Shown here: one piece after another, positions 30,501-33,500 of the stretch
Layout of the letters: every line of letters starts with the position of its first letter
How positions within the stretch are numbered: the first letter of the stretch is position 1
Made by a program: the position numbers
Assembly: GCA_965113315.1 (NCBI GenBank)
Contig: OZ220365.1
Length of the DNA: 64,000 nucleotides
Reading direction: 5' to 3' (one strand)
Source: Podarcis vaucheri
Lineage: Eukaryota

Positions 30501-33500
30501 GGTTCTAAAATGGACCCTTTTTAGAAGGGGAAACCAAGGAGGCTAAATTATAATAATTTTAAAGCCTCCTGAGAACTGATGCTAATTTACATATAACTTA
30601 TTACCACTTTGTTCATTTTTAGCACTGCATTTTGACCCAAGTATGAAGCAAATATATATTAAACCATTTATCTAATCTTGGACAAATGATTTATTGTCCA
30701 TTGGTACATTGGAATGAAGTACCGGTACCAATATTCTGGTAAAAGGTGGCTTGCGGCTGCATGAGAGCTGAATTGCCAATCAAGCTTAAGATCAATCTAA
30801 CTGTTTGCTGAAGCTTTCAAATTCAAGGATGAGCAAACATGCTATTAAAAGCAACGTATTAAACCCTTAATGCTGGCTTTGCTGAAGAAATGGCATGATT
30901 TGGCAGTTGCCCTATAATAGCAAAAGGATTATTCAGACATATATAATTATTTGGATCAAAATGGGAAACTACAAATAGCAAAAAGAAGCTGGCAAACAGC
31001 CAGATGTGGGAATGGACCTGAAAGATGGAGAAAGAGAAGTCTCAGTAAAACTTAAAATGTGGCTTATTGTAAAAGCAAAAGAAGTTGCAACTTACATATT
31101 AATAACAAGCTGGATCCAGACTTAATCACACTTAGTTGCAAGTAACATAAGTTCAGTTGATTTCAATGGGTCTGTTTTAAGGATTTATTTATTTAAAAAC
31201 ATTTCCATACTGATTAATATTTTAAAATTCTCTAAACGCTGTAAACACTAAGTCTAGATGCTTTTTATGTTAGAGGAAATTATGAAATGGTGTCGTATCT
31301 CAATATCATGCAGTCCTATTCTTGCACACATTTAAATACAGTGGTACCTTGGGTTAAGTACTTAATTCGTTCCGGAGGTCTATTCTTAACCTGAAACTGT
31401 TCTTAAACTGAAGCACCACTTCAGCTAATGGGGCCTCCTGCTGCTGCTGCGCTGCCATAGCACGATTTCTGTTCTCATCCTGAAGCAAAGTTCTTAACCT
31501 GAAGCACTATTTCTGGGTTAGCGGAGTCTGTTACCTGAAGCATATGTAACCTGAGGTACCACTGTATTATATTATTTTTGAAATTTGTTAGAGGTCTTTT
31601 TTGCCTAGAGGGTGCCCAAATAAGCCTAGAAGATGTCCAATTAGTATAGAAACATATTAGCGGGAACAAATAGTCTCCACACACAAAAATAATAAACATA
31701 GAATTGAGTTTTTCGCATCATTTTACATAATCTTGGGTTTTTTGCGGAGACTGTATTAAATTTTATTCAATCATTATTATTTTTAAAAAGGAACATATAG
31801 AAGTTGCTCTAATTTGCCTCTGTTTATTTCAATGTTGGGCAGCATACTTATTCTAATGTGACATTTACCAGTATCTTTTTTCAGCCCTTACAACAATGTA
31901 AAGTATTACATGCAGTAACGTCAGAAATCATAGTTTTTCAACTTCCCACCCACATCTTGGCTCACATTGCTTGCCTAAATAACCTTAATTCAGCCCTGAG
32001 AAAACATCCAAATAGCAAATATGCGTCCTAAAAATAAAATAAAACCAAGTTGGCGTTGATGGGCAAGGCTGTACTTTCATGATGACTTAAGGCAGGTTAC
32101 CCTAACTCGGTAATTTTTAAACCGTGATAAACTGAAAAGAGCACAGCTACCCTGTCTAAGGATCACAAATAGCTGAGCAGTATAGCATGCTTTAAAAGCT
32201 AGCCATTCCAAAGCAGCTGTTTTTGGCACTAATAGTAGCTGGCCTGGCACCCTAGGGGCTCTGCCCCATGCCTCCCACTGCTGTGAGCATGCTCTTTATT
32301 AGAGGAGAATGACAGGTAGATCCAGCTCAGGCTGAATCTGACATCATGACCTCATGGGAGGTCAAAACAAAGCATCAGTAGGTCTGGCACAATTTGTGAA
32401 TCTGTGCAGTGCAGGCGTGAGATGCTCACGTCTGAATAATCCATGTAGACTTCGTTGTTGCTTTTTAATGTACCGTATTTTTCGCTCTATAGGACGCACT
32501 TCTTCCCCTCCAAAAATGAAGGGGAAATGTGTGTGTGTCCTATGGAGCGAAGGCAGGCTTTCGCTGAAGCCTGGAGAGTGAGAGGGGTTGGTGTGCCTTG
32601 CATCTGTGAAATAATCTGGGAGGTGAAGAAGGCAAGGTTCAGTTCAGTTCCTATCCCACCTTGTCTCCAAAGATATCAAGGTTGTGTCCATGGTTTCCCC
32701 TCTTTTATTTAATCCCCAGAACGATCCTGTGAGGTAAGTTAACCTGAGAGGCGGTGACTGGGCCTAATTCAATCAGTGAGCTTCATGGCCAAGAGGGGAT
32801 TCAAACTCATGTCTCCCAGGGCCTAGTAAAGGAGACTATTTGTTCCTGCTAATATGTTTCTATGCTAATTGGCCATCTTCTAGGCTTAATGGGGCACCCT
32901 CTAGGCTTTCGCTGAAGCCTGGAGAGTGAGAGGGGTTTGTGCGCACCAACCCCTCTCACTCTCCAGGCTTCAGGAAGCTATCCGCAAGCCTTCGGAGTGC
33001 GGCGGGAGTTCCCGCCAGGCTCCGAAGGCTTGCGGATAGCAGCCTGAAGCCCGGGGAGCACAGCGCTGCACACCCCAGGCTTCGGCCAGCTAAATAAATA
33101 AATAAATATTTCTTTATTCCCCCCCCCTAAAAACTAGGTGCGCCCTATGGTCTGGTGCGCCCTATGGAGTGAAAAATATGGTACTTATATCCTGCTGTAT
33201 TTTAAAAGGAAAAAAACCAACTTACAACATAAAACAAAAATCAGTAAACTGCTTACAAATGGTGTAAAACTATGCCTAAAGTCTGTCTAAAATGTTTGAG
33301 GGTTCCTTTTCCTCTTAAAATCTGATAACTCCCCCTGTTTTGGTGTATTTATAAAACCACTGTTGTATTTATCCAACCACTGTTTCTATGTTTTTATTAA
33401 CGGGCAGAGCAGACACTTGGTTATGAGCTATCGGACAGTAGACTCTTAACTGAGTGGGGAAACCATTAAGATATCGGAGATGATCTGCCAAAAAAGCTGA

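What the first reader, a model, noticed from the sequence alone, without database searches (positions are those of the whole stretch)
32555..32990. Three-junction templated insertion: two neighbouring genomic segments copied into a hairpin inside a DNA transposon
Seen: within the TA-flanked element 32473-33181, bases 32592-32832 are a direct copy of 29539-29779 (241 bp, 2 mismatches by eye). Bases 32831-32906 are an inverted copy of 31603-31678 (76 bp, 5 mismatches). The element then resumes by repeating about 42 bp of itself (32555-32596 = 32903-32944). Each junction has microhomology (TGTGC, GG, AGGC). The first jump falls at the apex of an internal inverted repeat, CCTGGAGAGTGAGAGGGGTT-TGTGCGCACC-AACCCCTCTCACTCTCCAGG. 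Established: serial microhomology-mediated template switching is the signature of FoSTeS/MMBIR or aborted gap repair. Inference: a hairpin-induced stall or break loaded host DNA into an element whose TIRs remain, a snapshot of how a Pack-type (host-capturing) element can arise in a vertebrate. The GG microhomology exists only if the Sauria SINE at 29778 was already inserted, which would order the events.
Basis: partly seen in the sequence, partly recalled or inferred. Interest (0 to 1): 0.72.

Follow-up and report, generated by a model that had tools for sequence, protein, structure and literature searches.

The report
Neighbouring DNA copied into a transposon hairpin
A small lizard DNA transposon was broken or stalled at the tip of its own hairpin and patched with copies of two nearby stretches of the chromosome, a clear example of a process already described in animals.

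Summary
Inside the TA-flanked element 32473-33181:
- 32592-32832 is a direct copy of 29539-29779 (239/241).
- 32831-32906 is an inverted copy of 31603-31678 (71/76).
- 42 bp of the element are repeated on either side of the insert (40/42).

The junction overlaps are TG (not a clean TGTGC), GG and AGGC. Together they exceed chance (p about 0.004-0.007). One breakpoint lies 1-3 nt from the centre of a 31-nt-arm palindrome (fold -35.6 kcal/mol, z -10). The other lies at the palindrome's base.

The best reading is templated "filler" repair, or template switching, at a hairpin in a TA-duplicating MITE. The result is a single-locus Pack-TIR-like composite. This kind is already described in animals: 370 Pack-TIRs in 100 genomes, with nearby donors and short microhomology (PMC8277862).

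Caveats:
- The two fillers differ in divergence (0.8% vs 6.6%, p about 0.01), so one event is not assured.
- Using the GG to order the events relative to the SINE is weak.
- No coding domain was found where I looked.
- Mobilisation, orthologous loci and read support could not be tested.

Verdict: a new member of a known kind, of moderate to low interest.

The parts
32473..33181 (+). Non-autonomous TIR element (MITE-like). It is 709 bp as found and 361 bp without the insert and the duplicated 42 bp.
   Evidence: Sequence read. Both ends found by pattern. Aligned to the sister copy.
32471..32472 (.). Left TA target-site duplication
   Evidence: The sister copy is also flanked by TA on both sides.
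33182..33183 (.). Right TA target-site duplication
32473..32499 (+). Left terminal inverted repeat (about 27 nt)
33155..33181 (-). Right terminal inverted repeat (23/27 against the left one)
32555..32596 (+). First copy of the duplicated 42 bp of the element. It comprises 9 nt at the hairpin base, the whole left arm, and the overlap with segment A. Its arm part, 32564-32593, is a perfect 30/30 complement of the right arm.
   Evidence: (D2, I3). The 30/30 is read by eye from the sequences printed.
32592..32832 (+). Filler segment A, a direct copy of 29539-29779 (239/241)
32831..32906 (+). Filler segment B, an inverted copy of 31603-31678 (71/76)
32903..32944 (+). Second copy of the duplicated 42 bp, continuous with the rest of the element
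32912..32973 (.). Palindrome with 31-nt arms and no spacer. The centre is 32942|32943, which corresponds to 32594|32595 in the first copy.
   Evidence: I4. DNA fold -35.6 kcal/mol, z -10.03, 0 of 200 shuffles as stable.
29539..29779 (+). Donor of segment A. Its last 2 nt (GG, 29778-79) belong to the SINE.
31603..31678 (-). Donor of segment B. It has no other copy in the window and lies 33 bp to the right of an unrelated MITE (31335-31568).
   Evidence: (I6)
29778..30124 (-). Sauria-type SINE next to donor A. Its 16-bp target-site duplication is at 29762-29777 and 30125-30140.
   Evidence: 7 other copies in the window. (ends and TSD). The (ACCTTT)n tail and a TSD starting with T are as described in PMC13295347.
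43596..44232 (+). Sister copy of the same family, TA-flanked. It lacks both fillers and also lacks the 62-bp palindrome module.

Best explanation
This is a real templated insertion formed in place. A short TA-duplicating TIR element had already inserted at 32473. It later suffered a break, or a polymerase stall, at the centre of its 31-nt-arm palindrome. The free 3' end was extended on ectopic templates found nearby on the same chromosome. It copied 241 nt at 29539-29779 in direct orientation, then 76 nt at 31678-31603 on the other strand. It then re-engaged an intact copy of the element (sister chromatid or homologue) 42 nt behind the break, at the base of the hairpin. That re-engagement duplicated the left arm and regenerated the palindrome. 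Each switch used 2-4 nt of overlap.

The product has the form of a single-copy Pack-TIR: host DNA between the TIRs of one element, made by transposition-independent gap filling.

Shown here: the copies, their donors, the junctions, the position of the breakpoints relative to the hairpin, and the intact ends.

Inferred: that the hairpin caused the break, the order and direction of the switches, that all happened in one event, and that no transposase was involved. The structure has no evident function; it is a mutational scar.
For: - Copies and coordinates are as described.
- The donors are local (2.8-3.05 kb and 0.9-1.2 kb away). Both are two-copy in the window, and segment A is the most similar dispersed low-copy duplicate in the whole 64 kb.
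- Copying went from donor to element. Donor A is continuous with a SINE target-site duplication (16/16 at 29762-29777 and 30125-30140). The insert is bounded by a duplication of element sequence. The sister copy lacks both fillers. No other TIR of the family lies near the donors: the pattern search gave 4 hits, which are the 2 ends of each of the 2 elements.
- Microhomology: in the simulation, P(>=2) = 0.16, P(>=2) = 0.16 and P(>=4) = 0.02 for the three junctions. All three reaching at least 2 has P = 0.004, and a sum of at least 8 has P = 0.007.
- Hairpin: -35.6 kcal/mol against -11.9 +/- 2.4 for shuffles. The element-derived sequence ends at 32591-32593, which is 1-3 nt from the symmetry centre. 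The return point, 32903, is 9 nt outside the stem base. By my own arithmetic, a random breakpoint falls within +/-2 nt of this centre about 5/361 = 1.4% of the time, or about 4% if the three short-loop palindromes of the element are all counted.
- This is not an assembly artefact of identical repeats: there are 2, 5 and 2 mismatches between the copies.
- It fits the published class: donors less than 5 kb away in most close cases, median microhomology 2 bp, median filler 224 bp, internal breakpoints, TcMariner the second commonest carrier (PMC8277862, sections read).
Against: - Segments A and B differ in divergence: 2/241 against 5/76, Fisher p = 0.0099. Against B plus the duplication (7/118) p = 0.0069. 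A single event predicts equal divergence.
- Only one other family copy is available, and it lacks the palindrome module altogether. So I cannot say whether the hairpin is a normal family feature or itself a product of an earlier rearrangement.
- Two of the three overlaps are only 2 nt, each with p = 0.16 on its own.
- A cause-and-effect link between hairpin and break rests on position alone.
- No reads, no orthologous locus and no genome-wide search were available.
Confidence: 0.75

Rival explanations
1. There were two successive events at the same fragile site. An older event inserted segment B together with the 42-bp duplication. A later event inserted segment A exactly at the old element/B junction, which remained the stem-loop boundary of the first-copy arm paired with the right arm.
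For: - Divergence is 6.6% for B and 4.8% for the 42-bp duplication, against 0.8% for A (p = 0.0069-0.0099).
- Read by eye from the print-out, the sequence just upstream of donor B in the copied orientation is GT-rich and could itself have given an overlap with the element's apex (inference).
- The first-copy arm still pairs with the right arm over 33 nt at 97% (I3), so the same position could stay fragile.
Against: - It needs two independent breaks at the same nucleotide.
- Both mismatches of the 42-bp duplication lie in its last 7 nt, next to the junction (0 in the other 35 nt). They may be junction errors rather than signs of age.
- Two of segment B's mismatches are clustered (32889 and 32891), and 5 of the 7 A+B mismatches are transversions. 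That could reflect error-prone synthesis rather than time.
- Gene conversion between the 241-bp direct copies could have lowered the divergence of A (inference).
Confidence: 0.3
2. Abortive gap repair after transposase-mediated excision. The element was excised and the gap was refilled from the sister chromatid from both sides. Synthesis from one side fell off at the hairpin and wandered to nearby templates before the two ends were joined.
For: - The same junction signature is expected.
- P-element gap repair with fillers is the experimental precedent cited in PMC8277862 (introduction).
- The TIRs and TA are intact.
Against: - According to PMC8277862 (section 8), excision-triggered repair should give larger deletions with breakpoints biased toward the termini. 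Here nothing is deleted, 42 bp are duplicated, and both breakpoints are internal and tied to the hairpin.
- The two family copies differ by about 10% in their best-conserved 88 bp, while segment A is only 0.8% diverged. At least the A capture therefore looks much younger than the family's spread.
- No transposase was found among the 40 of 91 long ORFs scanned.
Confidence: 0.12
3. Assembly or polishing artefact: a chimeric consensus stitched reads from three neighbouring places.
For: No read data were available, so this cannot be excluded directly. The donors lie within 3.1 kb.
Against: - The copies are not identical to their donors (2, 5 and 2 mismatches).
- The junctions are precise, with overlaps, and they fall at the apex and the base of a hairpin.
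- The window has no N.
Confidence: 0.03
4. The 241-bp and 76-bp stretches are ordinary parts of this transposon family, or the copying ran from the element to the "donor" sites.
For: The internal regions of this family are very variable. The sister copy carries about 390 bp not found in this element.
Against: - The sister copy lacks both stretches.
- Neither donor is flanked by family TIRs (4 hits, all at the two elements).
- Donor A is interrupted at its right end by a SINE with a perfect 16-bp TSD, and the insert carries only the left TSD copy plus GG.
- The insert is bracketed by a duplication of element sequence.
Confidence: 0.02

Closest known systems
Single-copy Pack-TIRs of animals, made by transposition-independent gap filling (Tan et al. 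2021, PMC8277862; abstract, introduction, results sections 7-8 and methods section 14 read)
   Same: - Non-TE DNA lies between the two ends of one TIR element with its TSD.
- The donor is in cis and within 5 kb.
- The junction overlaps are short (their median is 2 bp).
- The filler is a few hundred bp (their median is 224 bp).
- The breakpoints are internal, which they attribute to internal fragile sites or secondary structure.
- The carrier is TA-duplicating. TcMariner carried 115 of their 370 cases.
   Different: - There are two donors joined head to tail, one of them inverted.
- A 42-bp duplication of the element takes the place of a small gap.
- The fragile site can be pinned to a palindrome centre.
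- Donor A abuts a SINE, and donor B lies 33 bp from a MITE. The insert-to-parent length ratio is also above 120%. Their pipeline would therefore have discarded this case.
- Their lizard row (anoCar2) lists 0 Pack-TIRs and only 77 consensus TIR TEs (supplementary file 7).
Pack-MULE / Pack-TYPE elements of plants (PMC8903248 and PMC6379663 seen as search listing and abstract only)
   Same: Non-autonomous TIR elements carrying captured chromosomal DNA, sometimes from several loci.
   Different: The plant elements typically carry gene fragments, are often multicopy, and have donors in trans. Here no coding domain was found and the donors are in cis. Only one copy is seen, and the search was limited to 64 kb.
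FoSTeS / MMBIR complex rearrangements (as summarised in PMC8277862 and listed in PMC2583991, listing only; the mechanism is otherwise recalled)
   Same: Serial template switches among nearby templates, mixed orientations, 2-4 nt overlaps, and a return to the original template behind the point of departure.
   Different: The scale is hundreds of bp rather than kb to Mb. A replicative origin cannot be told apart from a break-repair origin here.
Centre-break revision of palindromes, and cleavage of hairpin or cruciform tips
   Same: The breakpoint lies within 1-3 nt of the symmetry centre of a long, spacer-less palindrome.
   Different: Centre-break repair usually destroys the symmetry by a central deletion or insertion. 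Here the palindrome was rebuilt intact beside the insert.
Filler DNA at P-element and Ac/Ds/Mu gap-repair products (P element as cited in PMC8277862; the plant cases are recalled)
   Same: Templated filler from nearby sequence, with microhomology at the joints.
   Different: Those cases follow excision and usually come with internal deletions.

Membership tests
Pack-TIR (operational definition of PMC8277862, methods read) | Internal foreign sequence flanked by two ends of the same TIR element, with a TSD | tested here: met
   TIRs at 32473-32499 and 33155-33181, with TA on both sides. Foreign DNA occupies 32592/7-32902/6.
Pack-TIR (operational definition of PMC8277862, methods read) | Internal sequence between 100 and 5000 bp | tested here: met
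   The two fillers span 32592-32906, 315 bp counting the junction overlaps. The net addition to the element is 348 bp, because 709 - 361 includes the 42-bp duplication.
Pack-TIR (operational definition of PMC8277862, methods read) | Both ends cover at least 10 bp of the termini of the family consensus | tested here: inconclusive
   No consensus library was available. Against the single sister copy, both termini align (88 bp on the left at 89.8%, about 60 bp on the right at 93%).
Pack-TIR (operational definition of PMC8277862, methods read) | A unique parental copy at 90% identity or more, genome-wide | tested here: inconclusive
   A is 99.2% and B 93.4% identical, and each is unique within the 64-kb window. 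The genome was not available.
Pack-TIR (operational definition of PMC8277862, methods read) | Length ratio of internal sequence to parental copy between 80 and 120% | tested here: not met
   There are two parents. 315-348 bp against 241 bp for the larger parent gives a ratio above 120%.
Pack-TIR (operational definition of PMC8277862, methods read) | No TE within 100 bp of the parental copy (their control for segmental duplication) | tested here: not met
   The SINE starts at 29778, inside the last 2 nt of donor A. A MITE ends at 31568, 35 nt before donor B. This is a filter of their pipeline, not a biological criterion.
FoSTeS/MMBIR-type templated rearrangement | Two or more template switches joined in one product, with the templates close by | tested here: met
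   Three junctions, with all templates within 3.05 kb.
FoSTeS/MMBIR-type templated rearrangement | Microhomology at the junctions beyond chance | tested here: met
   Overlaps of 2, 2 and 4 nt. The joint simulation gives P = 0.004-0.007, but the two 2-nt overlaps each have P = 0.16 alone.
FoSTeS/MMBIR-type templated rearrangement | A single event | tested here: inconclusive
   Unequal divergence of A and B, p = 0.0099.
FoSTeS/MMBIR-type templated rearrangement | Origin at a replication fork rather than at a two-ended break | not testable with these tools
   Both routes give the same product.
Tc1/mariner-superfamily MITE (Stowaway-like) | TA target-site duplication | tested here: met
   2 of 2 copies in the window.
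Tc1/mariner-superfamily MITE (Stowaway-like) | TIRs related to those of an autonomous Tc1/mariner transposon | not tested
   No repeat library was on hand. A text search for three TIR motifs found only 2 unrelated C. elegans papers.
Sauria SINE (neighbour of donor A) | (ACCTTT)n tail at the 3' end, and a TSD beginning with T (PMC13295347, passages read) | tested here: met
   All 6 copies inspected share the terminal GTAAAGG on the + strand. 5 of the 6 show further GTAAAG-like units beyond it. The copy at 29778 has one unit, part of which is ambiguous with its TSD. In SINE orientation its TSD starts TTTAC.
Sauria SINE (neighbour of donor A) | tRNA-related 5' region | tested here: inconclusive
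   ARAGORN found no tRNA in 28000-35000, and Rfam gave no hit. A B-box-like motif is visible by eye near 30040-30060 (the motif is recalled).

The most novel reading that the evidence does not exclude
The composite may not be a dead scar but a founder. With both TIRs and the TA intact, it could have been mobilised, seeding a multicopy Pack-TIR family in a squamate. Alternatively, the same palindrome apex may have been hit twice. It would then be a recurrent fragile site that loads host DNA into this family stepwise and explains why the family's interiors differ so much between copies. Neither reading could be tested, because no squamate genome was searchable here.
Probability: 0.06. Interest if true: 0.55.

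Novelty: new member of a known kind. Interest (0 to 1): 0.3.

Why it matters
The case shows every step of a template-switching repair at single-nucleotide resolution:
- the departure point at a hairpin apex
- two local donors, one of them inverted
- the return point at the hairpin base

It gives a concrete sequence-level example of the "internal fragile site or secondary structure" that the animal Pack-TIR study could only propose. Squamates were effectively unsampled in that survey: the lizard row lists 0 cases and 77 annotated TIR TEs. The survey's filters would also miss two-donor cases and cases with TEs next to the parental copy. Such events may therefore be under-counted.

The case adds no new mechanism, and nothing suggests a function.

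Tried and rejected
- Family consensus: only two copies of the family exist in the window (4 TIR hits, which are the 2 ends of each of 2 elements). The ancestral state of the palindrome and of the two mismatches near junction 1 could therefore not be set.
- Naming the family: a full-text search for three TIR motifs returned 2 papers, both unrelated C. elegans work.
- Donors for the sister copy's interior: none in the window. Only an internal 114-bp tandem repeat was found.
- RNA and tRNA scans: no Rfam family at gathering score in the whole window and no tRNA in 28-35 kb.
- Coding context: Pfam was run on 40 of the 91 stop-to-stop ORFs of 90 aa or more. It gave one sub-threshold hit (17.4 bits against a cut-off of 27, ORF 219-779) and nothing else. 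The other 51 ORFs and shorter exons were not scanned.
- A link between the SINE's integration nick and the end of donor A: considered and dropped. The staggered cuts implied by the 16-bp TSD would end the relevant template strand at 29761/62, not at 29777 (inference).
- Searches for squamate Pack-TIRs: "Pack-TIR" occurs in 3 papers of the library, and only PMC8277862 concerns animals. One search was too broad to be informative.
- Genome-wide BLAST of the junctions, orthologous loci and long reads: not possible.
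Full report
**Observation**

A repeat scan of 29000-34000, a BLAST of the element against the window and base-by-base comparison show:
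- Segment A, 32592-32832, equals 29539-29779 in direct orientation. Identity is 239 of 241, with mismatches at 32651 and 32663.
- Segment B, 32831-32906, equals the reverse complement of 31603-31678. Identity is 71 of 76, with mismatches at 32847, 32864, 32873, 32889 and 32891.
- A 42-bp piece of the element is present on both sides of the insert (32555-32596 and 32903-32944). Identity is 40 of 42, and both mismatches lie in the last 7 nt.

The E-values within the window are 1e-121, 1e-27 and 1.5e-13. In a self-comparison of the whole window, the segment A pair is the most similar dispersed low-copy duplicate.

**The carrier**

The element 32473-33181 is flanked by TA on both sides. Its terminal inverted repeats are about 27 nt and match at 23/27.

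A second copy of the family lies at 43596-44232 and is also TA-flanked. A pattern search for the TIR found 4 sites, which are the two ends of these two elements and nothing else.

The two copies share:
- about 88 bp at the left end (89.8%)
- about 129 bp of GC-rich palindromic interior (79%)
- about 60 bp at the right end (93%)

The rest differs. The sister copy lacks both fillers. It also lacks the 62-bp palindrome module, which in our element is bracketed by a 7-nt direct repeat.

A TA duplication and TIRs point to a Tc1/mariner-type MITE. I could not test relatedness to an autonomous element, and a text search for the TIR motifs named no family.

**Direction of copying**

Donor A ends in a Sauria-type SINE on the minus strand. 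Seven other copies of this SINE are in the window.
- All 6 copies whose ends I inspected share the terminal GTAAAGG. 5 of the 6 carry further (ACCTTT)n-type tail units. This is the tail described for Sauria SINEs in PMC13295347 (passages only).
- The SINE body is 29778-30124. It is flanked by a perfect 16-bp target-site duplication at 29762-29777 and 30125-30140.
- The insert carries the left duplication copy plus GG and then switches to segment B.

So the donor locus is the continuous, older arrangement and the element holds the copy. Neither donor has family TIRs around it.

**Junctions**

The second and third junctions have exact overlaps: GG (32831-32) and AGGC (32903-06).

The surviving copy of the element reads TGCGC there. 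The strict overlap is therefore TG (32592-93), followed by a mismatch and then GC.

A simulation drew random switch points in the same element and donor loci, 20,000 draws per junction.

| Test | Probability |
|---|---|
| Junction 1, overlap of at least 2 | 0.16 |
| Junction 2, overlap of at least 2 | 0.16 |
| Junction 3, overlap of at least 4 | 0.02 |
| All three at least 2 | 0.004 |
| Sum at least 8 | 0.007 |

Microhomology is supported jointly, not junction by junction.

**The hairpin**

The palindrome has 31-nt arms with no spacer (32912-32942 and 32943-32973, 97%).

As single-stranded DNA, 32903-32985 folds at -35.6 kcal/mol. Shuffles give -11.9 +/- 2.4, so z = -10.0, and 0 of 200 shuffles fold as well.

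In first-copy coordinates the symmetry centre is 32594|32595. The element-derived sequence ends at 32591-32593. The other breakpoint, 32903, lies 9 nt outside the stem base. The duplicated 42 bp is therefore essentially the whole left arm from base to apex.

By my own arithmetic, a random breakpoint falls within +/-2 nt of this centre in about 1.4% of cases. The figure is about 4% if all three short-loop palindromes of the element are counted.

The first-copy arm, 32564-32593, is a perfect 30/30 complement of the right arm. The second-copy arm carries one mismatch, T at 32938 (read). This mildly suggests that the original palindrome was perfect.

**Mechanism**

The simplest account is a break or stall at the palindrome centre, followed by three steps:
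1. Extension of the 3' end on donor A.
2. Extension on the opposite strand of donor B.
3. Extension on an intact copy of the element, entered 42 nt behind the break.

Read on the other strand, the same product arises if synthesis left the element just after completing the palindrome and came back into the apex loop. The "first jump" is therefore not defined by the sequence.

A replication-fork route (FoSTeS/MMBIR) and a two-ended break repaired by synthesis-dependent annealing give the same product. Fillers of 241 and 76 nt taken from 1-3 kb away fit D-loop synthesis better than polymerase-theta end joining; that comparison rests on recall.

**What does not fit**

A single event predicts equal divergence of the parts. 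The observed divergence is:
- segment A: 0.8% (2/241)
- segment B: 6.6% (5/76)
- the 42-bp duplication: 4.8% (2/42)

Fisher's test gives p = 0.0099 for A against B and 0.0069 for A against B plus the duplication.

Possible reasons are:
- two events at the same site
- error-prone synthesis: two of B's mismatches are 2 nt apart, and 5 of the 7 A+B mismatches are transversions
- gene conversion keeping the 241-bp direct copies alike
- a closer donor for B elsewhere in the genome

None could be tested here.

**The GG and the order of events**

Without the SINE the donor site would read ...GTAAAATAC (from the second TSD copy).

But donor B supplies GG by itself. A blunt join from a SINE-free allele would give the same insert. 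The ordering is an inference from assumed use of microhomology. Either way, it is a mild coincidence that the end of donor A sits at a SINE boundary.

**Context**

Pfam was run on 40 of the 91 stop-to-stop ORFs of 90 aa or more. It found nothing above a curated cut-off. The one sub-threshold match scored 17.4 bits against a cut-off of 27.

No exon or transposase was identified, so the captured DNA is non-coding as far as I can tell. Shorter exons were not examined.

**Comparison with what is known**

Tan et al. 2021 (PMC8277862; abstract, introduction, two results sections, methods and one supplementary table read) report the following:
- 370 Pack-TIRs were found in 100 animal genomes.
- Nearly all are single-copy, which the authors attribute to transposition-independent gap filling.
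- 56.9% lie within 15 kb of the parent, and most of those within 5 kb.
- Microhomology is present at 67.6% of cases, with a median of 2 bp.
- The median captured size is 224 bp.
- The introduction names secondary structure as a possible cause of internal breaks.

The present case fits that description in every respect.

It differs in having two donors, a duplication instead of a small gap, and an identifiable palindrome centre. It would also fail two of their pipeline filters: TEs next to the parental copies, and the length ratio.

Their lizard row lists 0 Pack-TIRs and 77 consensus TIR TEs. The term Pack-TIR appears in only 3 papers of the library, and none concerns squamates.

**Verdict**

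This is a new, well-resolved member of a known kind.
- genome-wide copies of the junctions
- the family consensus
- orthologous loci
- read support

Noticed in passing
window 43810-44061: The sister copy of the MITE carries a 114-bp tandem repeat, 2.2 copies at 99% identity. This is an independent, recent rearrangement inside the same family's GC-rich interior.
   Followed up: partly
window 32561-32963 versus 43676-43683: The 62-bp palindrome module of the studied element is absent from the sister copy. In our element it is bracketed by a 7-nt direct repeat (CAGGCTT). It may be a deletion in the sister copy or an earlier insertion or duplication in ours. Similar CTGAAGCC...GGCTTC modules recur at 33044-33085 and 43783-43797.
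   Followed up: partly
window 31335-31568: An unrelated MITE with 22-nt inverted ends lies 35 nt from donor B. Its right-hand part matches at least 8 other places in the window, e.g. 26582, 37015, 58604, 41836, 7776 and 35659.
   Followed up: no
window 29762-29779: The right end of donor A coincides to within 0-2 nt with the insertion point of the Sauria SINE. I considered a mechanistic link with the SINE's integration nick and found it does not fit the strand geometry implied by the TSD. The coincidence remains unexplained.
   Followed up: partly
window 29620-29775: Part of donor A resembles the core of MIR-type SINEs. This resemblance is recalled from memory, and no library was available to test it. 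No other copy is in the window at E < 1e-3.
   Followed up: no
window 40400-41800: Long open frames overlap on both strands and in several frames, as expected for a GC-rich stretch such as a CpG island. There were no Pfam matches.
   Followed up: no
window 33138-33168: A short direct duplication (GGTGCGCCCTATGG twice, 17 nt apart) lies just inside the right TIR of the studied element. The sister copy has it once.
   Followed up: no
window 12930-13079 and 36804-36951: A 150-bp inverted pair at 95.3% identity, 23.7 kb apart, present in only two copies in the window. Its nature is not determined.
   Followed up: no
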